Shown piece by piece: positions 42,429-64,000 of a stretch of DNA of 64,000 nt. The stretch is taken from NCBI GenBank assembly GCA_944329425.1, contig CALVIG010000003.1:51460-115459 (forward strand), read 5' to 3'. The translations under genes were made by a program, and so were the position numbers. The notes under the pieces were generated by a model. It did no database searches and was not told where the DNA came from. It saw nothing but the letters and a program-made list of their open reading frames with translations. Source of the DNA: an uncultured Bacilli bacterium. Lineage in GTDB: Bacteria; Bacillota_I; Bacilli_A; RF39; UBA660. Within the stretch, counting starts at the first letter, position 1. Every line of letters begins with the position of its first letter.

Positions 42429-42660
42429 AGATATTGAGTAGTACATCTAAACACTTTTACTTTTGCAGTAAATGTTTGTGGCATTGTAGTGGGTGTGCTA
42501 CTATGATTATAGAGTTTTATTTTTTTGATTTATTTTTTTATATAAATCTCGGATGCGTTTTTGTTAATAAAATCCCATCAGGGATTTTTTTTGTGCAATT
42601 TTATTTAGCACGAGCACCGCCTTTCTGTAAAAAAAAATTATTTTTACGGAAAGGAGTTTA
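42429..42660 (+). promoter_or_regulatory. Conserved leader upstream of sigma-like regulator copy A (paralogous to 54777-55011)
   Basis: About 85 nt are roughly 80% identical to copy B (AGATATTGAGTAGTACATCTAAACACTTTTACT ... GGGTGTGCTACTATG). This is followed by a terminator-like hairpin plus T-run (42570-42593), the shared CACCGCCTTTCT box and a second hairpin abutting the RBS. Confidence 0.4.
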
Positions 42661-42661
42661 A

Positions 42662-43147: not shown

Positions 43148-43180
43148 TCTGTTATTTTTCATTTTAGTGAGGAAATAGGT

Positions 43181-43245
43181 GAAGGGATATATATCCCTTT
43201 TGCCTATCTTTATTAATTAGGTATGATCTTTGACAACTTAATATT
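43181..43245 (+). promoter_or_regulatory. Conserved terminator hairpin plus TTGACA-containing 21-nt box downstream of sigma-like copy A
   Basis: Hairpin GAAGGGATATATATCCCTTT, then GATCTTTGACAACTTAATATT. The same arrangement, nearly identical, occurs at 55531-55611 after copy B. It lies about 80 nt upstream of the tail-collar gene. Confidence 0.4.
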
Positions 43246-43323
43246 ATTAATTTAAAAATGTCTAGTGAAATTCCAGTAGAAAAAATTTTATGATGAAGCT
43301 GTTAAAGAAAGGAGAATGATATT

Positions 43324-44466: not shown

Positions 44467-44855
44467 TGATAACCCTTCCCATTAAGGATCATTTAATTAT
44501 GCGAGCACTTAATAATTATTCTAATACTGTTTATGAACTTAATATTTTAAAAAGAAGATTAAATTTACTTGTAAATTATGAATCCGAAATTGCTTTGGAA
44601 AAAAATAGGTTAATAAATTTAATAGATAACGAACAACAGGTGATAAAGCAAATGGAAAATGATTTACAAAATTTATCTGGTATTGAAAATAAACTGTATT
44701 ATGAAATTGTTATTAATGGTACTAACGTAACAAAGGCAATAGATAAAGTAGCAACAAATGAATTTATTGATACTTCAACTTTATGGAAAAATTATTATCC
44801 TAAAGTAAAAAAAGAAATAGATAAATTATATCTACTATTATCTAAAGAAAATTAA
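44448..44855 (+). CDS. Hypothetical protein (possible fibre chaperone/accessory), translationally coupled
   Basis: Overlaps the 3' end of the previous gene. 135 aa. No recognisable family. Confidence 0.35.
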   Translation: MEKGILMITLPIKDHLIMRALNNYSNTVYELNILKRRLNLLVNYESEIALEKNRLINLIDNEQQVIKQMENDLQNLSGIENKLYYEIVINGTNVTKAIDKVATNEFIDTSTLWKNYYPKVKKEIDKLYLLLSKEN

Positions 44856-44875
44856 ATATAGAAAGGAGATTAGCA

Positions 44876-50800: not shown

Positions 50801-51079
50801 GATATGAGAGATGTTGTACGTGGTGAAAGATTAACAATTGAAGAAACAATTGCAAAAGTTAATGCTAAGGGAAATGTTATGTGTGATAATTATTGGCCCG
50901 CTAAAGAAGTTGCTACTGCCATTTCTCCAAATCCAATATGTGAAATAAATAGCATTCAGCATAAAGGATATAAATATTACTATCACTTTCATCCAAATAG
51001 AGATACTTATAAGGATGTACATATATTCTTTGAAGGATTACCATTAGAATTTTTTGAAGGGAAGGGAAATTGTAGATGA
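44876..51079 (+). CDS. Rhs/YD-repeat polymorphic toxin (2067 aa): DNRLRE-like domain, CBM-like and ricin-B-like lectin modules, YD repeats, RHS core, variable C-terminal toxin domain
   Basis: RBS GAAAGGAGA. Dozens of YD-type repeats (e.g. YKYDSNENITNIKY, YTYDLLGRL). RHS core end motif FRYRSYYYDSETKLYYLNSRYYNPEWKRFINPD...NIYIYSLNNPILYSDESGN. N-terminal region with DNRLRE-like segment (DRENRTLIKFDL). No signal peptide. Confidence 0.85.
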   Translation: MKEIELIGKRKAREKHFLKENGIITANVYDEDIHFLKDGKYEEIDNTLIEENGYLVNKNNAYKVSFAKKSKDELMEMSIGNNYIKTMLVYQKEVDLKENITQSKLHKNVCYPNIIENVDLEYNIMPGKVKEAIILKNKNVDLEKLVFIIETNTKLELKENKKIISTVDNNNCFEFDALYMIDANFKTNNNINYKLTKRDDDIYQLELIVDKEWLNNEETKYPVIIDPTITNSGQNNSVYDTYIYPGDTGVDRNSQDILKAGVERIDGVDRENRTLIKFDLPVIGTGSQVIGANLQLYGYPKIPSDSETDLLLAHRITTNWDESTATWDNMNDKFDPLVEGLIFVGRGYYDFENETIHPFNCGGDITRLVRKWYTGTPNYGIMLKQNLLKYNANILPAFYSNNNNSTGINPKPVLSISYRNQNGIENYMNYQTKGFYDGEAYVNNYNGNLTTIFDIGSTISGKMPIGLNLIYNTNDVVLEKNYGYGLGYKLNLHQTIKEQLIDSKTYLEYCDEDGTLHYFLNEKAMFDENGYNIINTQNIYYDEDGLDMTITKNSNSYVLKDKNGNTMTFIKNGDKAYLTKIEDVNGNKNTIEYSPENAIVKIIDANDNEINLEYGATTITIISPEQTVTLSYLNNQVVSINSLTGITQFEYNANNIISKIIDIDGMKTTYDYYDQKPYKVKKVSEYGAENTLGEYFEMLYDFDSTTIVDSKENAKNIIFNSQGSVVSISGLKDKDDIKNSYGLSQINGTSGITINNGNNNKLLRTEIPLKYVKNLLSNTSFEKNVINFTSTEDVNMIITNETSETGANSLKATSTINNQALTQSIDVEKGDYYTFSSYIKNTGDVKLILSYFDKNGIIIQSQSELIKPSDVFERYDVTIKYPEDATSNLTLKIILEDAGTVYVDDVQLETGEVANNYNLLENSDFSNGFSDWEVSASDNLTGDLLSINDVFEIVSLPDNLNALKIKMNPAYNYIMEKTYNISGKGGDVFNLSFWYKNEGVDSDLSEYYGSRPYIIFHYTNQEDGHCIIPTPLLNINDQSWQYVSNDFTAEKDYSSITISIQHQYTANDFYITNMSLFKDIRNVYYEYDEFGNVILEKNLDDNSNKYNYDKDNKLIQMTNPKGKNFTIEYDNIFKNRTINGMTDMGVSNQLKYDNNNNPIISRVQKNNIIGDITDGLYKIRLKGSDIYLRNISNDIKCKLENCNHDIWKLEKIDEYVKIHHSILTDKYFTVQNNNIILSNENGDNSLFKLKKNKNGSYSIKLKLEDKYLKYNNSGIEISTLIDEDYSFEFYFETVDCDLFIENKAEYTENGAFISRIIDSLNHSYNYEIDQEKGLTKSETNEKGIKTNYNYNSKKKLISSICNDKSVFYEYNDKNLLSKVKHGKKEYNFIYDEFSNVKTIKMGNNIRLITYNYDTNGDLILLDYGNEGSLNYEYDEFSRLSKKTKENDTYEYKYNGSGDLVKILSNNYITKYTYDLAKRLSKYNFDDFIIKYKYDSNENITNIKYSLGSINNEIINTFNDDDLIINTSFSNKKINYTYDLLGRLKSEKINNIYETSYEYIENGKNTSTLLKKLKTGNNIYSYKYDKLNNLTHVYYNDDLLTKYYYDDYNQLIKEIDFEDKKIIKYKYDNVGNMLYKKVYALDTYDFITQDIYYYNNDDWQDQLTSFNNTAITYDEIGNPLTIGNNINLNWINGRELETYNDGTNLISYKYNSEGIRISKKVNNTETKYYLEDNDIIFEKRGNNVLYYLRNDIDDLFGFMYNNDLYYYVKNNKNDIVGILDNSYNIVAKYKYDSWGKVISITDSQDNDISNNVNNIGNINPFRYRSYYYDSETKLYYLNSRYYNPEWKRFINPDSYAGQIGGNILLHNIYIYSLNNPILYSDESGNIVGLTSVAAGVLYAFGIAVFKASVYVAVSGLVVGGSIYVGKAISNNKSKSKSKTKAQSKSKIKTAVAAKAKTSTKKYSNNNKPCTEAYFTKDMRDVVRGERLTIEETIAKVNAKGNVMCDNYWPAKEVATAISPNPICEINSIQHKGYKYYYHFHPNRDTYKDVHIFFEGLPLEFFEGKGNCR

Positions 51080-51804
51080 TAATAAGAGATAAAGTGACTG
51101 GTGATTTATATAAAAATTTAATGAATTATATTATTTCAAAAAGTGACGTTTTATCAGTATCAGTAAATCTTATTTATAATAAGAAAGTTACGGATAAATT
51201 TATGAAAATTATTACATATAATAATGAGTATGATATTAATAATATTCTAAATGATGTTCCTAAAAAACTAATAGAGGAAATTTCTGAGGAAAACAAGAAT
51301 AATACTTTAATTTTTGATGAAGAATATATAAATAATGAAAAAAGATATTTAATAAAATATATTCAAAATTTTTCAGAAGATGATAGGGTATCTCTCATAT
51401 ATAAAAGAAGAAAAACTTATATAAAAAATATGATTTATTGGCTAGTTTATGAATATAAAACAACTAATTGGTTACGTAAATTTAAAACTAGTATTATTTA
51501 TAAAAAGCGTAAAAATTCATCGTATACTACTTATTATCTCAATCTGACGAAGGATTTAATAGATGATATCCTTAGCAGAAATTCATTTGATGATTGGAAT
51601 TTTCCATTATCTGTTGAAGATATTGCATTTTTTAAGGATAAACAATGTTTATTATGTTCAGAAACTCATGAAAATATGTGGGATTTATATTGTAAAGATC
51701 AAAATGAATATAAGTATTTTAAATCTATTGGTATTAAATTTAATGATTTTAAATATAAATCAGAAGGAAAAAAAGGATTACCTTACAATAATTATTATAT
51801 TTAA
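51076..51804 (+). CDS. Putative cognate immunity protein of the Rhs C-terminal toxin
   Basis: Start overlaps the Rhs stop (ATGA). Cytoplasmic 242-aa protein with no homology recognised. The position is typical for Rhs immunity genes. Confidence 0.45.
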   Translation: MIIRDKVTGDLYKNLMNYIISKSDVLSVSVNLIYNKKVTDKFMKIITYNNEYDINNILNDVPKKLIEEISEENKNNTLIFDEEYINNEKRYLIKYIQNFSEDDRVSLIYKRRKTYIKNMIYWLVYEYKTTNWLRKFKTSIIYKKRKNSSYTTYYLNLTKDLIDDILSRNSFDDWNFPLSVEDIAFFKDKQCLLCSETHENMWDLYCKDQNEYKYFKSIGIKFNDFKYKSEGKKGLPYNNYYI

Positions 51805-51908
51805 TTAGATTTAGGTATTATTAATTTGAACTTTAACTCTAAAATTTGCAAAAGGCATTTTGATCGAGTTATCATTATGTCTTTTAATATTTTTCAAAAG
51901 GAAAAATT

Positions 51909-52208
51909 ATGATAAATTTTATAATAAATTATTGGATTGAGATATTATTGACGTCTATTACATCAGGAATTATATATATTTTTAAACAATATATGGGTTT
52001 AAAAAACGGAATGAAATCTCTTTTAAGAAATGAAATAATAAGAATATATGATAATCAAGAAAAATTAGGATATTGTCCTAGTTATATGAAAGAGAACATT
52101 AAAGAAATGTATGAAAACTACCATAAATTAGGTGGTAATGGAATGGTTACAAAAATGACTAATAAATTATATGAATTACCAAATGTAAAGGAGGATGATA
52201 AAGTATGA
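51909..52208 (+). CDS. BhlA/UviB-like holin-family protein (N-terminal transmembrane helix plus coiled region)
   Basis: 99 aa. Single N-terminal transmembrane segment. First gene of a three-gene overlapping cassette that ends in a lysin. Confidence 0.35.
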   Translation: MINFIINYWIEILLTSITSGIIYIFKQYMGLKNGMKSLLRNEIIRIYDNQEKLGYCPSYMKENIKEMYENYHKLGGNGMVTKMTNKLYELPNVKEDDKV

Positions 52209-52432
52209 AAGAAAAATTGATTTTATCTATTATTAATTTACTTAAAGTAAAATCAATAATAACGCTACTTACATTTGTAGCGTTCTTTTATTTATCTATT
52301 TCAGAAAAAATAGGTAGCGATAATTTTATGCTGATTATAGGAATGATTGCGACTTATTTCTTTAATAAAGATAATTCTGAAAAATTAAAAAATAAATCTA
52401 TGGAAGTGGTAAAAGATGAGCAAGATAACTAA
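52205..52432 (+). CDS. Small two-transmembrane holin-like protein
   Basis: 75 aa. Two hydrophobic helices and a charged C-terminus (KDEQDN). It overlaps both neighbours (ATGA-type coupling). Confidence 0.45.
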   Translation: MKEKLILSIINLLKVKSIITLLTFVAFFYLSISEKIGSDNFMLIIGMIATYFFNKDNSEKLKNKSMEVVKDEQDN

Positions 52433-53153
52433 CTTAATATTTAAAAATGCTAATCATTATGTAACATCTGGCTTTGGTAATAGAAAAGTAATGAATACCA
52501 AAGGAGGCTATACAAGTTCTTTTCATAATGGAACAGATTATGGGACAAATAATGTTAAATTACCACAATATGCTATTGAAAATGGAACTGTATTAAGTTG
52601 TGGTACGGATTCTTTAGGAGGAAAATTTGTTTGGGTTAAATATCCTAGAATAAATGTTAAAATGCTTCATTATCATTTATCTAGTGTTAATTGTAAAACT
52701 AATCAAATAGTATCTAAGGGAACACTTTTAGGATATACTGGTATGAGTGGTAAGGCAACAGGTATTCATTTGCATTTGTCTATTGTTGATCTATCTAATG
52801 GAGAGTTTTTGAATCCTGAGACGTATTCTTATACTGAACAAAGTGAAACATCTGTGCCTGTAATTAATAATTCATTTTTTGGTAATAAATCATATTTTAA
52901 GCGTGGTGATTCATGTGACAATATAGGTAAAGTATGTTATTTTTTTGCAGACTATTTTTATGGATATTTTTGTAAAACTAAAGAGGAGGCTCATAAGTTA
53001 TTAGATGGTAATCTATTTGGACCATATCTTGAGAAATGGGTAAAAGAGTTTCAAGAAAGAGCTAAAGCAGAGGGAAGGTATTATGATAACATTGATGGCT
53101 ACATTGGACCTAAAACTTTAAAAACTTTAGAAAGCTATGGGTTTATTTATTGA
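52416..53153 (+). CDS. M23-family peptidoglycan endopeptidase with C-terminal PG_binding_1 domain (endolysin-like)
   Basis: HNGTDYG ... GMSGKATGIHLHLSI (HxxxD/HxH zinc motifs of LytM/M23). C-terminal ...YYDNIDGYIGPKTLKTLESYGF is the peptidoglycan-binding repeat. No signal peptide. Confidence 0.75.
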   Translation: MSKITNLIFKNANHYVTSGFGNRKVMNTKGGYTSSFHNGTDYGTNNVKLPQYAIENGTVLSCGTDSLGGKFVWVKYPRINVKMLHYHLSSVNCKTNQIVSKGTLLGYTGMSGKATGIHLHLSIVDLSNGEFLNPETYSYTEQSETSVPVINNSFFGNKSYFKRGDSCDNIGKVCYFFADYFYGYFCKTKEEAHKLLDGNLFGPYLEKWVKEFQERAKAEGRYYDNIDGYIGPKTLKTLESYGFIY

Positions 53154-53284
53154 TTAATAAAGGGGTACAAATTATTATTTTGTATCCTTTTAAAATATTC
53201 ATATTTACTAAAATAATTAAATATGATAATATAAACTTATAAAATGTGTTGATTAGCAGTAAATAATATTTATTAGGAGAAATC

Positions 53285-54058
53285 ATGACAAAGAGATTAA
53301 AACTATTTATAATAATTACTGTATTATTAATTATAATAATATTTATTTTCAGATTATTTCCTTTTGGATATAATCAATATAAAATTAGCTTGGATTTAAG
53401 TAAAATTACTTTGCCTAAATTTTCATATGATATTAAACAGGAACAAAAAGGTATAATAACTTTTAAATCACATAGAAGTAAATTTATAATTCAAGATGAA
53501 ATAAATGATATGTTTGAATCTTATGATAAATATATTTGTAATAACAAAGTGTATTATTATGATAAAAATCATAATATAACATTTATGGATTATGAAATCT
53601 CAAATAGATTTTTTACTAATAATATTAAATTAATATATCATAGTGGTAAATTTAGTGATAATGAATGTGCAAAAGTATTTGATTATAAACAAATGGATTA
53701 CAGAATTATCCCGGTTAATAGCACAGGTCATTGTTATATTAAAGAAGATAAGTTTGAATATAGAGATGAAAATAATGAATTACATAATGTGTATTATGAA
53801 TGTTTTGGTAATTTAGCATTTAAAAATGGAATGAATAAAATGGAATATATTGATAGAGTTTTATTTTTTAGATGGATTTCTATGAAGGACATAATTAATT
53901 ATTTAAATTATAAAACAAAAGATAAAACTTTTATGAAAAAAATAATAGATAAAAAACATACGTTATATTATAATAATGATTTTTATTTGTTGAAGTGTAA
54001 TAATAAAAATATATATATAGGTGAAAAGTATGATGAATTTAAAAGTTATTGTAATTAA
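53285..54058 (+). CDS. Hypothetical protein with N-terminal transmembrane anchor
   Basis: ORF with RBS AGGAGA. Extremely AT-rich. No family recognised. Confidence 0.35.
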   Translation: MTKRLKLFIIITVLLIIIIFIFRLFPFGYNQYKISLDLSKITLPKFSYDIKQEQKGIITFKSHRSKFIIQDEINDMFESYDKYICNNKVYYYDKNHNITFMDYEISNRFFTNNIKLIYHSGKFSDNECAKVFDYKQMDYRIIPVNSTGHCYIKEDKFEYRDENNELHNVYYECFGNLAFKNGMNKMEYIDRVLFFRWISMKDIINYLNYKTKDKTFMKKIIDKKHTLYYNNDFYLLKCNNKNIYIGEKYDEFKSYCN

Positions 54059-54412
54059 AAATAAATTTGATATAAAATAATCAAATTTATTTTTCTATGC
54101 ACCTATAACAAATTTCAGAAATAGAAAAGTTATATCTTTTTGAAAGTAAGTAAAGTCTTTCTAATTAAATAATGACTTTACCATACTCTATTCCACTTAA
54201 CATACTTTTTTGAATATTTAGTATTATTGCTAATTTTTTTAACTTAGATTTTAAGTTTTTCTTATTCTTAAAATATTTTTAGGAATGATTTTTAAATTCA
54301 ACTCTGTAATATTATAAATTCTTTTAGAATCATTTTTAATAAATTAACAACAGAAGAGAGAAAAATTATATATTGGATTTATTTGGACAATAAATGAAAG
54401 AAGGAAAACAAA

Positions 54413-54613
54413 ATGAGAAAAGACTCTTTAAATAGTGTGGCATCAGCAGTAAAAGAGTTCAAAAAATATATAAAAGAGAATGAAAATAATATTGATAAAT
54501 CGAAAAAAATTATATTAAGGCAGGCTCTAAAAGCAGCGCGCTCTATTATAAGCTCTAATAGAACATATTTTAATAGCCAAGAGTTAAGAGAATTATTTAA
54601 TGATAATGATTAA
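54413..54613 (+). CDS. Hypothetical small protein
   Basis: 66-aa ORF with RBS GAAGGAAAA. Confidence 0.3.
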   Translation: MRKDSLNSVASAVKEFKKYIKENENNIDKSKKIILRQALKAARSIISSNRTYFNSQELRELFNDND

Positions 54614-54776
54614 AAGTAAAATTATATTTCATTTTTTAAAAACATTAAAATAGTAAAGTTTTAAATCATGTTTTTATTAGTTTTATATTATAAAAATCTC
54701 ATTTACTTTTCTGATGTAAAAGTATATAATAGCACTTAAAAAAAAGCAGTGCTTATTATAAAGTATAAGCGATTTT

Positions 54777-55011
54777 AGATATTTGAGTAGTACATCTATA
54801 AACTTTTACTAGTGCAGTAGTTTAGTAGCATTGCTATTAGGGTGTGCTACTATGTATGAAAAGATATTTAATAGTCAATATTTTATTTTTAATGCCGTAT
54901 GGGGCTTGTTCGTTCAAGTCCCGTGCGGCATTTTTTTTATACCTGTTTTTATTATGTTTAAAATTCGTTCACCGCCTTTTCTATTGAATAACTCAATAGA
55001 AAGGAAGGTAA
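54777..55011 (+). promoter_or_regulatory. Conserved leader upstream of sigma-like regulator copy B (paralogous to 42429-42660)
   Basis: Same conserved 5' block, internal hairpin plus T-run (54894-54938), CACCGCCTTTCT box and RBS-proximal hairpin CTTTCTATTGAATAACTCAATAGAAAG. Confidence 0.4.
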
Positions 55012-55491
55012 ATGAATAATCCAAAAAGACGCAAAAGTAAAGATAATCCATATACTTTAATTTATAATTCACAAGATGATAAATATATTATTTCTTTTAA
55101 TGATTCTAGTAACCATAAAATTATTTTTGAAATAGATCGTTCTTTATATATGTTATTTAATGAATTTGAATTAGAAGACTTATCAGAGTTAAATGAATTT
55201 GATAGACATATAGAGCATCTTAATATAATGGAGAGTGATGAGATTCTATATAAAAGAACCCTGAAAAAGAGTTTATTAGTAGATGACATTGTTGATAAAA
55301 AATTAGAAATGGAAACATTGAGAGAAGCTATAAATGAACTTCCAATGACGCAGAAAAGGAGATTAAAAAAGTACTATTTTGAAAATAAAACGCTGGAAGA
55401 TATAGCAAAAGATGAACATTGCTCAAAAGTGGCTGTTAAATATAGCATTGATTGTGCAATTAGTAATTTAAGAAAAAAATTAAAAAGTTAA
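55012..55491 (+). CDS. Sigma-70 region-4-like HTH regulator, copy B
   Basis: 159 aa. Paralogue of 42662-43147 (shared KSKDNPYTL, LNEFDRHIEHL, KYYF...K..S blocks). Confidence 0.55.
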   Translation: MNNPKRRKSKDNPYTLIYNSQDDKYIISFNDSSNHKIIFEIDRSLYMLFNEFELEDLSELNEFDRHIEHLNIMESDEILYKRTLKKSLLVDDIVDKKLEMETLREAINELPMTQKRRLKKYYFENKTLEDIAKDEHCSKVAVKYSIDCAISNLRKKLKS

Positions 55492-55530
55492 ATTTTTAGG
55501 CTTAACTTTTAGGCTAGAAGTGAGGAAATA

Positions 55531-55611
55531 GATGGAAGGGTAAAATATCCTTTCCATCTGTTTTTGATTTTAATAACAAAACACAGAAGTTGATCTTTGA
55601 CAACTTAATAT
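55531..55611 (+). promoter_or_regulatory. Conserved terminator hairpin plus TTGACA box downstream of sigma-like copy B
   Basis: GATGGAAGGGTAAAATATCCTTTCCATC hairpin, then GATCTTTGACAACTTAATATT (identical 21-mer to copy A). Confidence 0.4.
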
Positions 55612-55880
55612 TTATTCATCAGATACGTTCTTATTGTTCTGGAGCACGTTAACAAGTACGCTTGTCGGTAAATACTTGGTTATAAAACTAGATGGCAACT
55701 AGTATTGCGAAGATAAATAATAAGGTTAAAGATACTTCTGTTCAGCCATAGACTCAATCATTGGGAGCAGTCCGGAGTGATCCTCGGGAGAGTGAAAATC
55801 TCATGGAATTAGTTAGCCACTAATCGTCTGGTGAATGTTAAAAGTACTTGTTTATATTAAAATGGAAGGGAATTTATTAA

Positions 55881-56081
55881 ATGAAAAAGTATAAAGTAAA
55901 AATAAAATTAATATTTGAGACTACTATGTATCATTCACAGACGAGTTTGAAAAAGACTAAAGAAGACATTAATAGGGTTATAACACATTATTTAAAGGGT
56001 AAAAAACTTAATATTTTAAATTTATTTAATACTACACCGCGAATTATTTGTAAGGTGGAAAAAGATGATAGAAAACAATGA
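55881..56081 (+). CDS. Hypothetical small basic protein
   Basis: 66-aa ORF with RBS GGAAGGGAA. Upstream of the recombinase. Confidence 0.25.
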   Translation: MKKYKVKIKLIFETTMYHSQTSLKKTKEDINRVITHYLKGKKLNILNLFNTTPRIICKVEKDDRKQ

Positions 56082-56373
56082 TATTAATTAGTAAAAAAAT
56101 ATTATGATTAAAAAGTTTTGCATACATATAAATAGGAGGAAGATAATGTGAATGAAGTTGAATATAATGTTAATGTTTTTGTAAATAAAAATGGTTATAA
56201 TTCAAAAGATAAGAAAATAATTGAAAAAAAATTTAATCAAAAATTATTAAAGATAATTATTTCTATAGAAAAAAATAAAGTTTGTCAAGTTTAAAAAAAT
56301 AAAAAAAGTATAATTTATATTTTTAAAAATTTATTTTAGTATTAATTTGCAAGAAAGGAGGGTGCTTTCTATA

Positions 56374-57984
56374 ATGAAGAATAGAGTTGATATATATACA
56401 AGACTTTCCGATGAAGACAGATATAAAAAAAATAAAAGTGATGATAGTGAATCTATAGCTAACCAGAAAAGCATGTTATTAAAATATGCGTTAGAGCAGG
56501 GCTGGGAAGTAATAAATGTTTATAGTGATGATGATTATTCCGGTGCTGATAGTAATAGACCACAATTTCAAAAACTTTTAAAGGATTGTGAAAATGGCGT
56601 TGTTGATATAGTGCTTTGCAAAACCCAGAGTAGGTTTTCTCGTGATATGGAAGTCGTTGAAAGGTATATACATAATAAATTTATTGAATGGGGAGTACGC
56701 TTCGTTAGTATTGTTGATAATGCAGATACTGCAAATAAAGGCAATAAAAAATCTAGGCAAATTAATGGCCTTGTAAACGAATGGTATTTAGAAGATTTAT
56801 CAGATAATATTAGAAATTCATTGCAAAACAGAAGAGAAGATGGTTTATTTTTAGGATCTTTCGCTCCATATGGTTACATTAAGGATCCGGATAACAAAAA
56901 CAAGTTATTAATTGATCCCATTGCTGCTGAAATAGTAAGAGAAATATTTAACTTGTATAAATCCGGAGTTGGTTATTATAATATTGCCACAACTTTAAAT
57001 AAAAGAGGCGTTTTAACACCTTCTAATTATAAAAAAGAAAATGGTAGTAAATATGTATGCGGGAAAGCACGATTTAAAGAGAAAACAAAATGGTCTCAAG
57101 ATACGATTGCTAAAATATTAAGAAATGAAGTTTATATAGGTAATTTAGTGCAAGGAGTAAAAACTTATGTAAGTTATAAAAATCATAAATCTTATATTAA
57201 GCCTAAAAATGAATGGACTTATTCTTATGGTACACACGAACCTATAATAGATATGGAAACGTGGAATATGGTTCAATCTAAATTTAGATCTAGGACAAGA
57301 GTTAGTAGAACAACAGGTGAAGTATATTTGTTAAGTAAGAAGATTTATTGTAAAGAATGTGGTGGTGTATTTAATAGACAAATTTATCACACAAAAGACG
57401 GAAAAGTTCCATATATGAAATGTAAGGGAGTAAAGCTAGCTAATCGTGATTGTTCTAATAGGGAATCAATAAGATGTGAAAAAGTTGAAAAAATAATATT
57501 AGATGAATTGAATAAACAATTAGACTTATATTATAATGTTGATGAATTAGAAAGGTTATATGTTTTGCAAAAAAAATCTTTGAATAGTAGTACTTTATTA
57601 AAGAAAGAAACTTTAAATAATGAAAAACAAATATTACAGGAAAAAGTCGATAAAAAAAATGAACATTATAAAGCTTTATATGAAGATAAATTGGAGGGAA
57701 TAATTACGCAAGAAGACTTTATAATGTTTAGAGAAAAATTTTTAAATGAAATTGAAGAATATAAAAATAGAATCAAAATTATTGACGAGGAATTGAAATC
57801 GTTAAAATCGGAAGAAGAAAATGTTGAATCGAGCAGAGAAGTTTTTGAAAAATATAGACATATTAATAAACTTACAAAAGAAATTGTTGATGAATTTGTT
57901 GATGTTGTTAAAATAGGTAAAATAAATAAAGAAGATAATAGTAGAGATATAGATATTCATTTGAATATCATTAATTTAGATTAA
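56374..57984 (+). CDS. Large serine recombinase (resolvase/invertase N-terminal catalytic domain, recombinase domain, zinc ribbon, coiled-coil)
   Basis: N-terminal VDIYTRLSDEDR...IANQKSML (catalytic Ser region), YSGADSNRPQFQKLL, a C-terminal Cys cluster (CKECGG...CKG...C) and a long coiled-coil. The ATG at 56374 with RBS AGGAGGG is the preferred start. The stop lies 20 bp from the att core. Confidence 0.85.
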   Translation: MKNRVDIYTRLSDEDRYKKNKSDDSESIANQKSMLLKYALEQGWEVINVYSDDDYSGADSNRPQFQKLLKDCENGVVDIVLCKTQSRFSRDMEVVERYIHNKFIEWGVRFVSIVDNADTANKGNKKSRQINGLVNEWYLEDLSDNIRNSLQNRREDGLFLGSFAPYGYIKDPDNKNKLLIDPIAAEIVREIFNLYKSGVGYYNIATTLNKRGVLTPSNYKKENGSKYVCGKARFKEKTKWSQDTIAKILRNEVYIGNLVQGVKTYVSYKNHKSYIKPKNEWTYSYGTHEPIIDMETWNMVQSKFRSRTRVSRTTGEVYLLSKKIYCKECGGVFNRQIYHTKDGKVPYMKCKGVKLANRDCSNRESIRCEKVEKIILDELNKQLDLYYNVDELERLYVLQKKSLNSSTLLKKETLNNEKQILQEKVDKKNEHYKALYEDKLEGIITQEDFIMFREKFLNEIEEYKNRIKIIDEELKSLKSEEENVESSREVFEKYRHINKLTKEIVDEFVDVVKIGKINKEDNSRDIDIHLNIINLD

Positions 57985-58004
57985 TTACCTTGCTAACACG
58001 TATC

Positions 58005-58270
58005 CTGGACATGGAGGATCTGATCCAGGCGCATCAAATGGTGATATTATTGAAAAAGATTATACTTTAAAAATATCTAATTACATGTATGATAGGTTTA
58101 AAGATTTGGGTATACCGGTGGTTATAACTAGAACAACGGATAAAACTCTTAATCCAACAGACAGGGTAAATGTTATTAAACCCAACATAACTAGTAAAGA
58201 TGATATAGTTATTTCTAATCACTTAAATGCCGGAGGTGGCGAAGGTCAAAGTGTAACAATAAATGTATAA
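58005..58270 (+). pseudogene. 3' fragment of the cwlC-type Amidase_3 gene (start-less), resuming at ...PGHGGSDPGASNGD
   Basis: The frame is open from the element junction with no start codon. It contains GHGGSDPGA, VITRTTD, and HLNAGGG (the H.NAGGG zinc-ligand region), then stops prematurely shortly after. Confidence 0.6.
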
Positions 58271-58309: not shown

Positions 58310-58660
58310 ATGAATATTAGTTACACTAGAAAAGGTGATTATTTATTACCTAATTTGATATTAGAAAATAAAGAACAATATAATATAAGAAAATATGGAT
58401 TATTAAGATTAGATTATATTAAAAATAATAAGAAAAGTTTATACATTAAATTACTTATGAATGATGAATTAAATAAATATTTACATGATATAGATGAATT
58501 AGTAGAAGATAAAGTAAATGAATTAATAAAGATACTTGCTGAAAAAGAAAATATAAATGAAGAAATGAAATGTAATCAACAATTACTATGGATAAAAAAT
58601 ATGAATAATATAAAAAATAGAGCTGAAGAAATTATATTAAAGGAGTATATCTATGTGTGA
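58310..58660 (+). CDS. TnpV-like transposon-encoded protein (Tn4451 TnpV family)
   Basis: N-terminus MNISYTRKGDYLLPNLIL and C-terminal LWIKNMNNIKNRAEEII resemble TnpV proteins, which pair with large serine recombinases. Confidence 0.45.
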   Translation: MNISYTRKGDYLLPNLILENKEQYNIRKYGLLRLDYIKNNKKSLYIKLLMNDELNKYLHDIDELVEDKVNELIKILAEKENINEEMKCNQQLLWIKNMNNIKNRAEEIILKEYIYV

Positions 58661-58952
58661 TATAACAGAAAAAGAATGGAATCAAAAATATTTACCTTTT
58701 TATCATAATTTCAGTAAGTATATGATTAATTACATTATTCCTGATGTAGTAGCTTTTTATATAGCTAATAGTTATAGTAGAAAATGTTTATGTGATTCAT
58801 CGCTTTATAATCATATTAATTCTGCAAAAGATGTATTTAATGTAAGCTGCGATACAAAAAAATTAATACCTAAAATCGAAGAAATATTAAGAATAAAATA
58901 TAATCTAAAAATAGTAAATAATAATCCATTAAGATTAAAAAGATGTTATTAA
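58653..58952 (+). CDS. Hypothetical protein
   Basis: ORF overlapping the tnpV-like stop. No family recognised. Confidence 0.3.
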   Translation: MCDITEKEWNQKYLPFYHNFSKYMINYIIPDVVAFYIANSYSRKCLCDSSLYNHINSAKDVFNVSCDTKKLIPKIEEILRIKYNLKIVNNNPLRLKRCY

Positions 58953-59368: not shown

Positions 59369-61474
59369 ATGGCTAATAAAAATACTAACTTGCAAAACGC
59401 AAAAAAAGCAAAAGATGATGAATTTTATACGAGATATGAAGATATTTATAACGAAGTAATTCAATATAAAAAACATTTTAATAATAAAATAGTTTTGTGT
59501 AATTGTGATGACCCGTTTGAATCAAATTTCTGCAAATTTTTTTTGAAAAATTTTAACGTATTGAAGTTAAAAAGATTGATTTGTACAACTTATTATTGTT
59601 CAAAAATTGTTTCTAAAGAATTTGAATTTTTAAAAAAGGAAAAGAAGAAAAACAAAAAGTATGGATATGTTTTAGACGTCACCAAGTTTTCAAATATTAA
59701 TGGAGAAATTCCTGATGAAATAATTTATGATTTCCTTAAAAAAGCAGATTGTATAAAAAGATTAAATGGTGATGGAGATTTTCAAAGTGATGAGTGTATT
59801 GAGTATGTAAAATTATCAGATATAATTGTAACAAATCCACCTTTTTCCTTGTTTAGAGAATTTGTATCTATTATTACAAAATATCAAAAAAAATTTTTAA
59901 TAGTAGGTAATCAAAATGCATTGACTTATAAAGAAATTTTCCCACTAATAAAAAATGATAAGATATGGACTGGTTTTCAATTTGGTGAGATGAAATTTAG
60001 AGTTCCAAAAACATCAAAACCAAGAACAACTAGATATTGGGTTGATGAGTCTGGTCAAAAGTGGAGAAGTCTTGGTAATGCCATGTGGTTAACAAATATT
60101 GATAACGAAAGAAGACATAGACAAATAAATTTAACGAAAAAATATGATCCCAATGAATATCCTAAATATGATAATTATGATGCTATTAATGTAAAAACTA
60201 TAAATGATATACCTTATGATTTTTATGGAATAATGGGGGTACCTATAACGATTATAAATAGATATAATAGTGAACAATTTGAGATAGTTGGTGAGGCTAA
60301 TCATGGCTCTGATAACGAATATGATTTATTTAAACCAATATTAAATGGTAGGGAACTATATAAAAAAATTTTGATTAGAAGAAGAATCAAAGATGTAAAA
60401 ATAAAAGAGTTTTTGATTTTAGATTTATTTAGTGGGGCAGGTGGATTTTCGTACGGAATGGAAAAAAATCCTCATTTTAAAACAGTAGTAGCTCTAGATT
60501 TTAATAAATATGCATTAGATACTTTTAAAAGTAATATGCCAGATTCAGAAATCATATGTGGTGATATTACTAATGACGAAATAAAAGAGCAGGTTATTAA
60601 AATAAGTAGAGAAAAAAAAGTAAATATGATTATTGGTGGGCCCCCATGTCAGGGGTTCTCGTTGAAAGGAAAGAAATTAGGTTTGGATGATCCTAGAAAT
60701 TATTTATTTAGTGAGTATTTAAAAATAGTTGAAGCATTAAAACCGGAAGTTTTTATTATTGAAAATGTCAAGGCTTTATTGTCAACATCGGCTGGATGGT
60801 TTAAGAATCAAATAATTGAAAAAGTCTCTAAAATGGGATATTTTATTGAATGTGGAATATTGACAGCATCAGATTTTGGCGTTCCACAATCCAGGCAAAG
60901 AGCAATATTTATATGTTCAAAAAATAAAAAAATATCGCTTCCTAGTGCAACTGTTAAAAATAAAGTGACAGTTAAAGATGCAATTTATGATTTGGCGTTC
61001 CTTAATTCTGGAGAAGGAGATTTCGAACAAAATTATCAATTATCAGTGACTAGTAAATATCAAAAAGATATGAGAAAAGGTTGTAAAAAATTATATAATC
61101 ATCAAGCTTCTAATCATGCAAAGATTGCAATACAAAAATTAGAAATGATTCCACCAGAAGGTGGGAAAGAATTTTTACCAAAAGAAATGTTAGGAAAACA
61201 AAAATATAGTGGAACATGGGGGAGATTAAAATGGGATGATGTTTCTCCAACTATTGATACTAGATTTGATGCAGCATCAAATGGAACAAATAATCATCCG
61301 TTTTTAAATAGGGCAATAACTCCTAGGGAAGCAGCAAGATTACAATCTTTTGATGATAAATTTATTTTTTTAGGATCAAAAGTGCATGTTAGAGAACAAA
61401 TAGGGAATGCTGTTCCCCCTCTATTGGCAAAGGCAATAGCAGATAAAATATATATGGAATTAGGTGATGAATAA
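59369..61474 (+). CDS. Fused DNA methyltransferase: N-terminal EcoRI-methylase-type N6-adenine MTase domain plus C-terminal C5-cytosine MTase domain
   Basis: N-terminus NAKKAKDDEFYTRYEDI...IVLCNCDDPFESNF...IIVTNPPF (EcoRI methylase family blocks plus the NPPF motif). C-terminal half has FSGAGGF (motif I), GGPPCQGFS (PCQ, motif IV), ENV (VI) and QIGNAVPPLLA (X). Confidence 0.85.
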   Translation: MANKNTNLQNAKKAKDDEFYTRYEDIYNEVIQYKKHFNNKIVLCNCDDPFESNFCKFFLKNFNVLKLKRLICTTYYCSKIVSKEFEFLKKEKKKNKKYGYVLDVTKFSNINGEIPDEIIYDFLKKADCIKRLNGDGDFQSDECIEYVKLSDIIVTNPPFSLFREFVSIITKYQKKFLIVGNQNALTYKEIFPLIKNDKIWTGFQFGEMKFRVPKTSKPRTTRYWVDESGQKWRSLGNAMWLTNIDNERRHRQINLTKKYDPNEYPKYDNYDAINVKTINDIPYDFYGIMGVPITIINRYNSEQFEIVGEANHGSDNEYDLFKPILNGRELYKKILIRRRIKDVKIKEFLILDLFSGAGGFSYGMEKNPHFKTVVALDFNKYALDTFKSNMPDSEIICGDITNDEIKEQVIKISREKKVNMIIGGPPCQGFSLKGKKLGLDDPRNYLFSEYLKIVEALKPEVFIIENVKALLSTSAGWFKNQIIEKVSKMGYFIECGILTASDFGVPQSRQRAIFICSKNKKISLPSATVKNKVTVKDAIYDLAFLNSGEGDFEQNYQLSVTSKYQKDMRKGCKKLYNHQASNHAKIAIQKLEMIPPEGGKEFLPKEMLGKQKYSGTWGRLKWDDVSPTIDTRFDAASNGTNNHPFLNRAITPREAARLQSFDDKFIFLGSKVHVREQIGNAVPPLLAKAIADKIYMELGDE

Positions 61475-62349
61475 TGAATACAGAAATGGCATATTTGTTA
61501 GGAATGATTTTGGGAAATGGTGAAATACAACAAGGAATTAATGAAACGGTTGTTACAATAGATATTCCTCATAAAAATTTATACACAGATGATGAGAAAG
61601 ATGTTAGAGTATATGTTAAGGCTAGTTTAATGGATATAAGACAAATAGTAGAACCATTGATAGGGACTGATATTAGCTATACACAAAGTAGAAAATCTAC
61701 TTCTATTTCATTCAAAAAGTCAAACGCCGAATATGTAATGCGGCAAATCTTACATTATGTAGGTAATGGAAGCAAGCATGCATATATGGAAATGAATGAT
61801 GATTTATTTAATATAAAAAAAGATGAGAAGAAAGCACTTTTAAGAGGAATGGCTGATGTTACTGGGTACATTCGTAGGAGTAATTTGGCTTATGGAGTAG
61901 CAGGAGCACATCGTGTGTATATTGAAATACCTTGTAATTGGAAGATGGTAATTGATGTTGCAAATCTTTTAAAAGATATTGATGTTCCTATTCAAAATAT
62001 AGATTTTGGACATCCAAACTTTCGAGATAGTAATTTAAAAAAGTATAATTCAGGCCAAAAATTATATTGGAAAAAAGAACATCAAATTAAAATATACGCA
62101 AATGAATTTTTACCAATTGGATTTAGTATTAGTCATAAACAAGAAGCTTTGATAAAATATAGTAAAGAATTGCTTAATCACATGAGTCCAGAAACAACAC
62201 ATAAATTTTATTGGCAAAAAAATAATAAAGTAAACAAAATTAAGCCAATACATCCTGGTGAAAATGATAGCTCTTTGCCTACGTCAATACGTGGTAAACA
62301 TTATAATTCATGGACTGAGTTAGCAAAGGATTTGGGATATCATGAGTAA
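61474..62349 (+). CDS. Hypothetical protein with two LAGLIDADG-like motifs (candidate endonuclease)
   Basis: AYLLGMILGNGEI and LLRGMADVTGYI resemble the duplicated LAGLIDADG helices. The start overlaps the MTase stop. Confidence 0.3.
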   Translation: MNTEMAYLLGMILGNGEIQQGINETVVTIDIPHKNLYTDDEKDVRVYVKASLMDIRQIVEPLIGTDISYTQSRKSTSISFKKSNAEYVMRQILHYVGNGSKHAYMEMNDDLFNIKKDEKKALLRGMADVTGYIRRSNLAYGVAGAHRVYIEIPCNWKMVIDVANLLKDIDVPIQNIDFGHPNFRDSNLKKYNSGQKLYWKKEHQIKIYANEFLPIGFSISHKQEALIKYSKELLNHMSPETTHKFYWQKNNKVNKIKPIHPGENDSSLPTSIRGKHYNSWTELAKDLGYHE

Positions 62350-62836
62350 TGTTGCATTAGAAATAGAATTGTATGAGCCAATGAGAATTTGGTTTCAACA
62401 ATATTTAGAAGATAAATATAAAAATGCTGAAATAATTACAGTAGATGCTCATGCAAGAACCTTAGATAGTTACTTGCAAAAATATGGCGTTTTAAAATAT
62501 TATCCTTTAACAATCGGATTGAATATTCAAATAGATGTTTTAGGTATTATAAAACAGAAAAACAAAGTGTCATTAGCTTTTATTGAGGCCAAAAAGACCC
62601 AATTAAATTTACATGATTTGGGGCAGCTATGGGCATATTGCAAGTTATGCGACCCACAAGAAGCATTTTTGCTATCTTCACAAGGGTTAGGTAGTTTAAA
62701 TAAAATATTCAATCATTTATTGAGAGAAGATTTACTTGATTTTGGAGATGGAAAATTAATTAAAAAGATGAAAGTAGGTAAATGGGACATTCTGACAAAC
62801 AGTATAGATTATAACTCATTAATACCAAAAATATAA
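62342..62836 (+). CDS. Hypothetical protein with PD-(D/E)xK-like nuclease motif
   Basis: IQIDVLGII...(13 aa)...FIEAKKT fits a D...EAK nuclease core pattern. Overlaps the upstream gene. Confidence 0.3.
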   Translation: MSNVALEIELYEPMRIWFQQYLEDKYKNAEIITVDAHARTLDSYLQKYGVLKYYPLTIGLNIQIDVLGIIKQKNKVSLAFIEAKKTQLNLHDLGQLWAYCKLCDPQEAFLLSSQGLGSLNKIFNHLLREDLLDFGDGKLIKKMKVGKWDILTNSIDYNSLIPKI

Positions 62837-62929: not shown

Positions 62930-64000
62930 ATGCAGTATAATATTTTTAGAGTAAAAGATGAAAAAGGGCTTTTAGAGGAAATGAAAATAAAAAATTACAT
63001 TAAAAGTAATAATGAAAAAAAGGTAGATAATTATAAACTGTCATTATATTATTGTAAAAATGACAGTTCAAAAATATCATGGCAAAACATATTAAATGAG
63101 TTTAATGTTGATATAACAATAGATAAAGATAATTTGAAAGGGATATTATTAATATCTTCTGATATAGATTTTTATGCAGTTACATATGGTATGAGTAGTT
63201 CATTAGTGCAAAAGTATTGCGATACAGATTTTGCGATGAATATCGCTAAACGTGTAGAAGTTTCAAAAATAAAAAGAAAAGCAGCAAAGTTTTTAAATGG
63301 AAGTACTAGCAGTTTAGTAAAAACTATGTCTAATGCAAACATAATTGTTTTGGATAGAGGAGAATCTGTTGTTAATTTAGAAATTATACCTGATGAGTCT
63401 GAAAATTTAGGGAAGTGTATTATTATTGGAAAATCCTTAAAATTAAATCTAGATAAAAATATTGATAATATATCTGAAATTATATCAATAATAAAAAATA
63501 TTGAGAATAGAGAAGATAAAAGACCGATACCATTATTCGTAAAAGTGACTGATGATGACTTAAAATCTAGAATATGGGATTCATTAAATTCTGAGTTTAT
63601 GAAAAATATAAAAAACATTAATTTTTCACTTGATGAAATGAATGTTTTGGGGAGTTCAATATATTTTGATGATAATTTTAGATTAGAGTTAGCATATTTA
63701 AATAAAAAAGAAGAAATATCAATTTTAAGTACTGATATAGTGAGAAATTTTATTGAAAAAAATGATATAAAAATCGATAAAGTTTTAGATTATATAAAGA
63801 TAAAATATATTTCTGATAGTGGTAATTTTGTACGTTCTTTAAAAGAAGTTGTAACTTTTGATTTTAGTTATGAGAATACAAATTACGTTGTTTATGATGG
63901 TGATATTTACTACTATAATGATGATTTTTATCAAAATATTAAAGATGGATTAAGATTGATAGAATTTAAACCATATGATAAAGTGGATGATAAAAGTATT
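62930..64000 (+). CDS. TIGR04141-family (sporadically distributed) protein, N-terminal about 357 aa (3' end lies outside the window)
   Basis: Open frame from ATG 62930 (RBS AGGAGG) to the window end. Sequence features (FYAVTYG, ...IVLDRGE...) resemble the TIGR04141 family that is common in defence islands. Confidence 0.4.
   Translation, partial: MQYNIFRVKDEKGLLEEMKIKNYIKSNNEKKVDNYKLSLYYCKNDSSKISWQNILNEFNVDITIDKDNLKGILLISSDIDFYAVTYGMSSSLVQKYCDTDFAMNIAKRVEVSKIKRKAAKFLNGSTSSLVKTMSNANIIVLDRGESVVNLEIIPDESENLGKCIIIGKSLKLNLDKNIDNISEIISIIKNIENREDKRPIPLFVKVTDDDLKSRIWDSLNSEFMKNIKNINFSLDEMNVLGSSIYFDDNFRLELAYLNKKEEISILSTDIVRNFIEKNDIKIDKVLDYIKIKYISDSGNFVRSLKEVVTFDFSYENTNYVVYDGDIYYYNDDFYQNIKDGLRLIEFKPYDKVDDKSI

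What the first reader, a model, noticed from the sequence alone, without database searches (positions are those of the whole stretch)
57985..58270. Right junction (attR) and a second, premature truncation of the amidase 3' fragment
The 3' amidase fragment runs only about 88 codons beyond the core (through H-L-N-A-G-G-G, the second zinc-ligand region) and then stops (…GEGQSVTINV*). Full Amidase_3 domains continue about 80 aa further, usually with cell-wall-binding repeats. Immediately downstream begins another AT-rich block with a TnpV-like gene and an R-M/defence cluster. This suggests either a second, independent insertion into the same gene (nested or tandem elements) or decay of the host gene after capture. 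Either way, a repaired gene after excision of only the 16 kb element would still be truncated.
Basis: partly seen in the sequence, partly recalled or inferred. Interest (0 to 1): 0.6.

Follow-up and report, generated by a model that had tools for sequence, protein, structure and literature searches.

The report
Second island splits an already-split amidase gene
The early stop in this cell-wall amidase fragment is the left junction of a second mobile island inserted at a recurrent hot spot, so one probable sporulation gene lies in at least three pieces here, and relatives show three such hot spots.

Summary

- **What 57985-58270 holds.** It contains the right junction of a 15,990-bp element that carries a large serine recombinase (LSR), with the core CTGGACAT at 58005-58012. 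It then has 78 amidase codons (58013-58246), then the left junction of a second island. The last seven codons and the stop (QSVTINV*) are read from that island's terminal inverted repeat, GGTCAAAGTGTAAC.
- **Island 2.** A metagenome contig 100% identical to window 52342-64000 extends the sequence. Island 2 (TnpV, double methyltransferase, DUF6119, HTH_36) has its own LSR at about 65.4-67.0 kb.
- **Relatives.** Homologues of that LSR lie beside the same codons (NAGG|G-E/D-G) in 58 of 79 metagenome loci. The amidase remainder (rest of the domain plus 3-6 LysM repeats) lies 0.5-4.8 kb downstream of the LSR.
- **Precision.** An occupied/empty allele pair in a relative shows precise insertion at a GG dinucleotide.
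- **Frequency.** About 15 of 34 informative species representatives carry an island at this site.
- **Other hot spots.** Two more recur in the same gene, at DAGH|GG and in a LysM GDT(L/I) motif, each with its own LSR type.
- **Promoter.** A σK-type motif sits upstream of the gene in 24 of 33 orthologues. Skin-like reassembly during sporulation is therefore plausible but unproven.
- **Gap.** The right junction of island 2 was not recovered for this strain.

The parts
41953..41979 (+). σK-type promoter motif (AC-N16-CATAAAATA) upstream of the amidase start
   Evidence: One of only 10 full matches on both strands of the 67-kb composite. A CATAnnnTA motif sits at -23 to -30 in 24 of 33 orthologues, against 14 of 390 control ORFs. 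That it acts as a promoter is inferred from the B. subtilis σK consensus.
41999..42022 (+). Amidase piece 1 (codons 1-8, MVIVDAGH). It reads on into element 1 and stops at 42055
   Evidence: Strain L172 of the same species has this piece joined directly to 58013 onward.
42023..58012 (+). Element 1: a 15,990-bp insertion at hot spot 1 (DAGH|GG), with the core CTGGACAT at 42015-42022 and 58005-58012
   Evidence: Comparison with L172, which has this site empty (98-99.5% nucleotide identity).
56374..57984 (+). LSR1, the large serine recombinase of element 1, ending about 20 nt before its right junction
   Evidence: Pfam Resolvase, Recombinase and Zn_ribbon_recom domains. Homologues of 52% and 49% identity lie directly upstream of the same junction in L017 and L155.
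58013..58246 (+). Amidase piece 2 (codons 9-86, GGSDPGA...SNHLNAGGGEG)
58235..58257 (+). Left junction (attL) of island 2: the overlap GGTGGCGAAGGT (58235-58246), shared with the right junctions of related islands, plus the terminal inverted repeat GGTCAAAGTGTAAC (58244-58257)
   Evidence: Right ends in L093-L105 read ...GTTACAYTTTGACC-ATCGCGA|GGTGGCGAAGG, the reverse complement of this left end. The same left end is present in L001 and L172.
58247..58270 (+). Island-encoded read-through tail QSVTINV plus stop codon
   Evidence: In strain L172 a 1-nt indel changes the tail to QSVTNKCITIKA. Other relatives have the tails HCVTKYV and DSHCVTNV.
58310..58660 (+). TnpV-family gene of island 2
   Evidence: PF14198, E 2.6e-34.
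58653..58952 (+). 99-aa gene of unknown function that recurs at the left end of related islands
   Evidence: A homologous 110-aa gene is the first gene after the junction in L001-L004.
59369..62836 (+). Cargo: fused N6-adenine/C5-cytosine methyltransferase (59369-61474) plus 291-aa and 164-aa proteins, a probable restriction-modification module
   Evidence: Pfam and PADLOC MTase_II. The region 59385-62707 is 69% identical in nucleotides to small Lactiplantibacillus plantarum plasmids carrying dcm plus two hypothetical genes. A restriction role for the 291-aa and 164-aa proteins is inferred.
62930..64000 (+). DUF6119 gene of island 2, running off the window end
   Evidence: It is complete (531 aa) in L089 and is followed by HTH_36, a 31-aa ORF and LSR2 (527 aa, about 65408-66991 on the window scale).

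Best explanation
The premature stop at 58270 is the left junction of a second integrative island, independent of the 16-kb element.

**Shown**
- The host gene encodes a signal-peptide-less Amidase_3 enzyme with 4-6 LysM repeats (380-510 aa when intact). It lies in a conserved chromosomal position downstream of htrA.
- A large serine recombinase of the LSR2 type has inserted island 2 into the codons for N-A-G-G-G-(E/D)-G. The crossover lies inside the 12-bp overlap GGTGGCGAAGGT (58235-58246).
- The reading frame then runs into the island's terminal inverted repeat, which supplies seven junk codons and the stop.
- Island 2 carries TnpV, a conserved 99-aa gene, a methyltransferase-based module, DUF6119, HTH_36 and LSR2. 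It extends past the window end to beyond 67.3 kb.

**Inferred**
- By analogy with relatives, more cargo, the right junction and the rest of the gene follow about 2.4-4.2 kb after LSR2.
- Because serine-recombinase insertion is conservative, excising both elements would restore the gene exactly.
- The gene carries a σK-type, mother-cell-type promoter. The most likely biological logic is therefore that of skin, SPβ and gin elements, which are tolerated in a gene needed only in the terminally differentiated mother cell and are possibly excised there.
For: **The site is a recurrent insertion point**
- 119 of the 120 best homologue clusters of the N-terminal 86 aa are 81-125 aa long and end just after NAGG(G) with related tails. 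One, P0017, reads through as GGGDGAEVVYALRN.
- In species-representative genomes about 15 of 34 informative orthologues are cut at this site. The intact ones are Amidase_3 plus 4-6 LysM.

**Extension of the window**
- L089 is 100% identical to window 52342-64000. It adds DUF6119, HTH_36 and a 527-aa recombinase with Resolvase, Recombinase and Zn_ribbon_recom domains.

**The recombinase family is tied to this site**
- 58 of 79 metagenome loci with LSR2 homologues contain amidase pieces. The 3' remainders start at residues 84-88, 0.5-4.8 kb downstream of the recombinase. The 5' stubs lie 2.7-8.9 kb upstream of the recombinase.
- The island ends are inverted repeats: GGTCAAAGTGTAAC on the left and GTTACACTTTGACC on the right.

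**Insertions are precise**
- L140 carries a 7062-bp island where Clostridium sp. CAG:628 (L010) is empty. No target bases are lost, and the crossover is at GG in AATGCAGGG|GG|TGGAGATGG.
- Strain L172 of the window's own species has hot spot 1 empty and the same island 2 present. The two insertions are therefore separate events.

**The double or triple split recurs**
- L155 is split at both hot spots, each with the matching recombinase type.
- L006 is split at hot spots 2 and 3.

**The fragments look maintained**
- 25 of 33 3' remainders stay open to a natural C-terminus.

**Promoter**
- The σK-type motif is conserved upstream of the gene.
Against: - The right junction and the third gene piece were not recovered for this strain. 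All identical contigs break by about 67.3 kb.
- Sequence similarity to the closest LSR2 loci (L093-L096) stops about 100 nt after LSR2's stop codon. The size and right end of island 2 are therefore inferred.
- No σK- or σE-type motif was found upstream of LSR1, LSR2 or the neighbouring small ORFs. No recombination directionality factor was identified.
- Sporulation capacity of the host is only indirectly supported. A near-threshold CwlD and a SleB/CwlJ-like neighbour occur in relatives. No sporulation gene was seen among the window ORFs scanned.
- One or two 3' remainders look frameshifted.
- The homologue search is word-indexed and not exhaustive. Intact close alleles (P0390, P0405) were missed and appeared only.
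Confidence: 0.88

Rival explanations
1. Island 2 and element 1 are ordinary integrative, possibly mobilizable, islands. They use conserved motif-coding DNA of a dispensable gene as a landing pad, and the gene is simply inactivated. Excision, if any, serves transfer in vegetative cells and has nothing to do with development.
For: - Cargo is variable and defence-like: restriction-modification, Fic, AAA ATPases and OLD-type nucleases.
- Several recombinase clades and both orientations use the site.
- A TnpV gene, typical of Tn4451-type mobilizable transposons, is present.
- No sporulation-type promoter was seen upstream of the recombinase genes.
- About half of related species have the gene intact.
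Against: - The gene fragments stay open and keep their catalytic motifs in most interrupted alleles.
- A σK-type promoter is conserved upstream of the gene. That is the gene class in which disruptive serine-recombinase elements are known to persist.
- No relaxase or mobilisation gene was found in the visible part of island 2.
Confidence: 0.45
2. The truncation is decay of the host gene, by frameshift or nonsense mutation, after capture by the first element. No second element is involved.
For: The 3' part is missing from the window, and the AT-rich downstream DNA could in principle be unrelated.
Against: - The break coincides to the base with junctions in dozens of other genomes.
- The tail is the island's inverted repeat, and a second recombinase lies downstream.
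- The same island is present where hot spot 1 is empty.
Confidence: 0.02
3. A natural family of short (about 95 aa) half-amidase proteins ends at this position.
For: More than 100 protein clusters of 81-125 aa end here.
Against: - Their C-terminal tails differ by island class and are encoded by island ends.
- They cover only half of the Amidase_3 profile.
- Matching C-terminal pieces with junk leaders exist at the other island end.
Confidence: 0.02

Closest known systems
Sporulation gene-intervening elements: skin in sigK (SpoIVCA), SPβ in spsM (SprA/SprB), vfbin in spoVFB, vrin in spoVR, gin in gerE (GirC/GirX), yin in yabG
   Same: - A large serine recombinase is encoded near one end of the element, beside the junction.
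- The insertion is conservative and lies inside the coding sequence of a gene with a mother-cell-type promoter.
- Like gin, island 2 has no phage genes and carries a restriction-modification module (PMC5595907, PMC4191935, PMC10747680).
   Different: - The target, an Amidase_3-LysM gene, is not among the targets named in those papers, and four literature searches found no report of it.
- One gene has three separate hot spots, each with its own recombinase type, and up to three pieces or more in a single allele.
- No sporulation-controlled recombinase or directionality factor was identified, and excision was not observed.
Tn4451/Tn4453-type mobilizable transposons (TnpX serine recombinase, TnpV)
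   Same: A TnpV-family gene sits next to the element end, and the element is moved by a large serine recombinase.
   Different: - From my own knowledge, TnpX targets loosely defined sites with a GA dinucleotide, and tnpX lies beside tnpV together with the mobilisation gene tnpZ.
- Here the recombinase is about 7 kb from tnpV.
- No mobilisation gene was seen.
- Integration is strictly site-specific.
SCCmec-type cassettes (CcrA/CcrB/CcrC, integrating in rlmH/orfX)
   Same: - These are non-phage islands with variable cargo, moved by large serine recombinases to one conserved chromosomal site.
- Composite arrays occur.
- CcrB is the best NCBIfam match of both LSR1 and LSR2.
   Different: - The scores are far below the family cut-off (115-121 bits against 900).
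- There is a single recombinase per element.
- The insertion disrupts the middle of the gene rather than sparing its 3' end.
CwlC/CwlH mother-cell lytic amidases of Bacillus subtilis
   Same: They have an Amidase_3 catalytic domain that starts at residue 1 with no signal peptide, and late mother-cell expression (PMC517825). The gene here carries a σK-type motif.
   Different: The C-terminal wall-binding part here is 4-6 LysM repeats. Orthology and function were not tested.

Membership tests
Amidase_3 (PF01520) N-acetylmuramoyl-L-alanine amidase | Complete catalytic domain (174 profile positions, including the C-terminal metal-binding and catalytic residues) | tested here: not met
   The pieces in the window cover profile positions 1-80 only. 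Intact orthologues have the full domain.
Integrative element moved by a large serine recombinase | Recombinase with Resolvase, Recombinase and zinc-ribbon domains encoded in the element | tested here: met
   LSR1 at 56374-57984. LSR2 in the identical contig L089.
Integrative element moved by a large serine recombinase | Junctions with inverted-repeat arms and a short shared core, and conservative insertion relative to an empty site | tested here: met
   - Hot spot 1: the empty allele L172 of the same species.
- Hot spot 2: inverted-repeat ends and the empty/occupied pair L010/L140.
- The right junction of the window's own island 2 was not recovered.
Integrative element moved by a large serine recombinase | Recombination directionality factor for excision | not tested
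   Small ORFs exist: a 31-aa ORF before LSR2, and 66-aa and 48-aa ORFs before LSR1. None was evaluated.
Sporulation gene-intervening element (skin/SPβ/gin type) | Target is a mother-cell-expressed sporulation gene | tested here: inconclusive
   Supported by the conserved σK-type promoter motif and the lack of a signal peptide. Expression was not measured, and host sporulation is only indirectly supported.
Sporulation gene-intervening element (skin/SPβ/gin type) | Recombinase or directionality factor under sporulation-specific control | tested here: inconclusive
   No AC-N16/17-CATAnnnTA motif lies upstream of LSR1, LSR2 or the adjacent small ORFs. A motif scan cannot exclude such control.
Sporulation gene-intervening element (skin/SPβ/gin type) | Excision during sporulation rebuilds a functional gene | not testable with these tools
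   This needs cultures or read-level data.
Tn4451-family mobilizable transposon | TnpV together with an adjacent TnpX and a TnpZ mobilisation protein | tested here: not met
   TnpV is present. No relaxase or mobilisation family was found in the other island 2 proteins. The recombinase is distal.

The most novel reading that the evidence does not exclude
A σK-dependent mother-cell amidase gene is kept in up to four pieces by three unrelated recombinase-borne defence islands. It is reassembled only in the sporulating mother cell by two or three independent, precisely timed excisions. That would make it a multi-element version of the sigK/skin switch, widespread in uncultured gut Bacilli.
Probability: 0.3. 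Interest if true: 0.8.

Novelty: new variant of a known kind. Interest (0 to 1): 0.55.

Why it matters
- **Annotation.** Many "short amidase" proteins in databases are insertion junctions rather than real proteins.
- **Landing pad.** The locus defines a chromosomal site in little-studied gut Firmicutes where defence and toxin cargo accumulates. It has three distinct attachment sites and matching serine recombinases, which are candidate orthogonal integrase/att pairs for genome engineering.
- **Sporulation.** If excision is coupled to sporulation, this would be the first case I could find of one developmental gene needing several independent DNA rearrangements. It would also add a cell-wall hydrolase to the short list of genes interrupted by intervening elements.

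Tried and rejected
- **Remainder inside the window.** tblastn for the amidase C-terminal half in the window found nothing.
- **Extending past the window.** Exact-protein look-up reached about 67.3 kb only, because all identical contigs break there. The break is not a copy of the window's IS3 element. An exact-match scan of viral contigs with the last 27 nt found nothing. The closest 3' remainder found (P0389, L173) starts 22 nt from its contig end.
- **Chimeric records.** L005 (P0017) is chimeric after about position 545, so only its junction-spanning part was used. P0130 is also a chimeric protein and was ignored.
- **Known phages and plasmids.** No phage record has a recombinase more than 34% identical to LSR2. 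Plasmids share only the methyltransferase module.
- **Palindrome after LSR2.** I considered that the palindrome just after LSR2 (about 67.05-67.09 kb) was the island's right end or a tandem-element joint. I rejected it as the right junction because true right ends carry the inverted repeat GTTACACTTTGACC and lie kilobases further on in the closest loci.
- **dN/dS.** I did not compute dN/dS on the stubs. Divergence may predate the insertions, so the result would not discriminate.
- **Literature.** Four searches found no report of this target gene.

Full report
**1. What is at 57985-58270**

Frame 1 from 57980 reads ...NTYPGHGGSDPGASNGD...VISNHLNAGGGEGQSVTINV*, with the stop at 58268-58270. An 8-codon start, MVIVDAGH, lies at 41999-42022 and runs into foreign sequence. 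The joined protein matches Pfam Amidase_3 only over profile positions 1-80 of 174. No other amidase sequence is in the window.

**2. The first element and its right junction**

- Contig L172 comes from another strain of the same species (98-99.5% nucleotide identity, same gene order).
- In L172 the gene is uninterrupted at this point. Window 42022 joins 58002 onward with an 11-nt overlap in the alignment.
- Element 1 is therefore a precise 15,990-bp insertion, with the core CTGGACAT at 42015-42022 and 58005-58012.
- Its large serine recombinase (LSR1, 56374-57984) ends about 20 nt before the junction.
- Homologues of 52% and 49% identity sit in the same place in L017 and L155. DAGH|GG is therefore a recurrent hot spot (hot spot 1).

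**3. The second truncation is a second insertion**

*Stubs in other genomes*
- 119 of the 120 best homologue clusters of the first 86 residues are 81-125 aa long.
- They end just after NAGG(G) with a few classes of tail: QSVTNV, HCVTKYV, DSHCVTNV, SCGKLTFF, ANGKNVGKV, EFTYHYII and SDISNYEVLN.
- One cluster, P0017, reads through as GGGDGAEVVYALRN.
- This search is not exhaustive. Intact close alleles (P0390, P0405) appeared only in a later search.
- In species-representative genomes, about 15 of 34 informative orthologues are cut here and 18 are intact. These are MAGs labelled uncultured Bacilli, Tenericutes, Mollicutes or Erysipelotrichaceae, plus Clostridium sp. CAG:628.
- The intact genes encode 380-510 aa: Amidase_3 plus 4-6 LysM repeats, with no signal peptide.

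*Where the tail comes from*
- The tail is the island's own end.
- The window reads GGTGGCGAAGGTCAAAGTGTAACAATAAATGTATAACAATTAAAGCC.
- L001, from a 70%-identical amidase, reads GGAGAAGGTCATTGTGTAACAAAATATGTATAACAATTAAAGCC.
- L172 has the window's sequence with one extra A, which changes the tail to QSVTNKCITIKA.

*Extension beyond the window*
- Contig L089 is 100% identical to window 52342-64000 and continues the sequence.
- The ORF that runs off the window end is a 531-aa DUF6119 protein.
- It is followed by an HTH_36 protein, a 31-aa ORF and a second large serine recombinase (LSR2, 527 aa, about 65408-66991 on the window scale).

*The recombinase family and the site*
- LSR2 homologues were fetched from metagenomes in 79 loci, and 58 of them contain amidase pieces.
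- The 3' remainder begins at residues 84-88 (GG[E/D]GAEV), 0.5-4.8 kb downstream of the recombinase.
- Where the flank allows, a 5' stub lies 2.7-8.9 kb upstream of the recombinase. Examples are L098, L099, L110, L148 and L150.
- Right ends of the window's island class read ...GTTACACTTTGACCATCGCGA|GGTGGCGAAGG. That is the reverse complement of the left end GGTCAAAGTGTAAC, and both junctions share GGTGGCGAAGG.

*Precision of insertion*
- L140 is 97-99% identical to Clostridium sp. CAG:628 (L010) in the amidase gene. It carries a 7062-bp island exactly where L010 is intact.
- The site is AATGCAGGG|GG|TGGAGATGG. No bases are lost and the crossover dinucleotide is GG.
- That island belongs to a different recombinase clade and lies in the opposite orientation. 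Several lineages therefore exploit the same codons.

**4. A third hot spot and multiply split alleles**

- Many C-terminal fragments end ...YTVxxGDT(I/L/F)FMGNNE(Y)*, inside a LysM GDTL motif.
- In L006 the gene is laid out as follows: island (type I restriction-modification, HTH_36, 556-aa recombinase) - 127-aa middle piece - island (TetR, MMPL, 521-aa recombinase) - 126-aa LysM piece - SleB/CwlJ-like gene.
- L155 is interrupted at hot spots 1 and 2, like the window, with the matching recombinase type at each.
- Each hot spot therefore has its own recombinase type.

**5. Are the fragments maintained?**

- Of 33 interrupted alleles, 25 have a 3' remainder that stays open through 3-6 LysM repeats to a normal C-terminus.
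- Five end at hot spot 3.
- Two run off the contig end.
- One or two look frameshifted (L131, and possibly L136, which is among the 25).
- The 5' stubs keep DAGHGG and NHxNAGG across 64-99% identity.
- This fits either selection through periodic reconstitution or frequent turnover of the islands.

**6. What kind of gene is it?**

- The protein has no signal peptide.
- A motif AC-N16/17-CATAnnnTA matches the B. subtilis σK promoter consensus as I know it. Its -10 part sits 23-30 nt upstream of the start codon in 24 of 33 orthologues.
- In control ORFs from the same loci the figure is 14 of 390, and that count includes the amidases themselves.
- In the 67-kb composite the full motif occurs only 10 times on both strands, once at 41953-41979.
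- Relatives have a near-threshold CwlD three genes upstream (212 bits against a cut-off of 221.6) and a SleB/CwlJ-like gene next door.
- B. subtilis CwlC and CwlH are late mother-cell amidases (PMC517825).
- The inference is a mother-cell, σK-class wall hydrolase. Expression was not tested.

**7. How it most likely works**

*Shown*
- Two independent, conservative serine-recombinase insertions split the gene into at least three pieces in this strain.

*Inferred*
- Both elements keep intact recombinase genes and junctions, so both could be excised and the gene restored.
- The conserved protein motifs are encoded by rare G-rich DNA in an AT-rich genome. That gives the recombinases conserved, specific targets across genera.

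*Speculative (about 0.3-0.4)*
- Excision is confined to the mother cell, as for skin, SPβ, vfbin, gin and yin (PMC4191935, PMC5595907, PMC10747680).

*Against the speculative part*
- No σK- or σE-type motif lies upstream of the recombinase genes.
- The cargo looks like ordinary defence-island cargo.

**8. Limits**

- The right junction of island 2 and the third gene piece were not recovered for this strain.
- Identical contigs end by about 67.3 kb.
- Similarity to the closest LSR2 loci stops about 100 nt after LSR2's stop codon. In those loci 3.6-4.2 kb of further cargo (Fic, AAA ATPases) precede the junction.

**9. Comparison and novelty**

- The mechanism is that of known serine-recombinase islands and intervening elements. 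The closest analogue is gin in gerE, which is non-phage and carries a restriction-modification system.
- LSR1 and LSR2 score best against CcrB and XisF, far below the family cut-offs. No phage recombinase exceeds 34% identity.
- Not found in the literature searched: this target gene, and the arrangement of three hot spots with cognate recombinases in a single gene.
- I rate it a new variant of a known kind, of moderate interest.

Noticed in passing
window 35246-36684: An IS3-family insertion sequence (two overlapping minus-strand ORFs, 35285-36097 and 36133-36642) sits between rpsI and the AbiD/Abi_2 gene. It is absent from strain L172 of the same species.
   Followed up: partly
window 42312-43021 and 54668-55374: Element 1 contains the same module twice, 12.35 kb apart, at 70-89% identity. 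The module is a non-coding leader plus a small sigma-70 region-4 protein (42662-43147 and 55012-55491). This suggests a composite of two related elements, or cargo inserted into a minimal element.
   Followed up: partly
window 55726-55806: An Rfam pemK RNA motif (57 bits, gathering score 34.8) lies inside element 1, upstream of two small ORFs and LSR1.
   Followed up: no
window 43324-54058: The cargo of element 1 includes a 2067-aa RHS/YD-repeat-like protein (44876-51079) that overlaps a 242-aa ORF, a possible immunity gene. It also includes two small membrane-like ORFs and an M23 peptidase (52416-53153). Together they look like a toxin or lysis-type module.
   Followed up: no
L006 10001-18249; also L093, L095, L100, L123, L134, L015, L173: A third recurrent insertion site lies in the same gene, inside a LysM GDT(L/I) motif, and gives the tail FMGNNE(Y)*. 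It has its own 521-aa serine recombinase and cargo such as TetR/MMPL (L006) or SMC_N/AAA_15/OLD-TOPRIM proteins (L173).
   Followed up: partly
window 42250-42276 and 36713-36739: Two further full matches to the σK-type motif. One lies about 230 nt inside the left end of element 1 with no clear ORF after it. The other lies about 110 nt upstream of the AbiD-like gene.
   Followed up: no
about 67045-67092 on the window scale (L089 14704-14751): The palindrome AACTTTGTG-N9-CACAAAGTT lies about 60-100 nt after LSR2's stop codon. It marks the point where similarity to the closest LSR2 loci (L093-L096) ends. It could be a terminator, an operator or a module boundary.
   Followed up: partly
window 20262-24000: A tmRNA gene (20262-20625) follows smpB. 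Just after it comes a very AT-rich stretch (18-21% G+C) encoding an AAA/nSTAND-like protein and an ABC transporter, possibly an island integrated at ssrA.
   Followed up: no
L148 14639-16565; L006 18277-18705: Downstream of the amidase gene, both relatives have a SleB/CwlJ-like hydrolase. L148 also has a 393-aa amidase-LysM paralogue in which DAGHGG is replaced by AIDSSNSS, so it is probably catalytically inactive.
   Followed up: no
L003 15509-20291: In one relative the Fic gene inside the hot-spot-2 island is itself interrupted by another element that carries a serine recombinase (523 aa) and phage-like genes (HTH_3, DnaB_2). This is nesting one level deeper.
   Followed up: no
window 59385-62707: The methyltransferase module is 69% identical in nucleotides to small Lactiplantibacillus plantarum plasmids (dcm plus two hypothetical genes). 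The cargo module therefore moves between very different replicons.
   Followed up: partly
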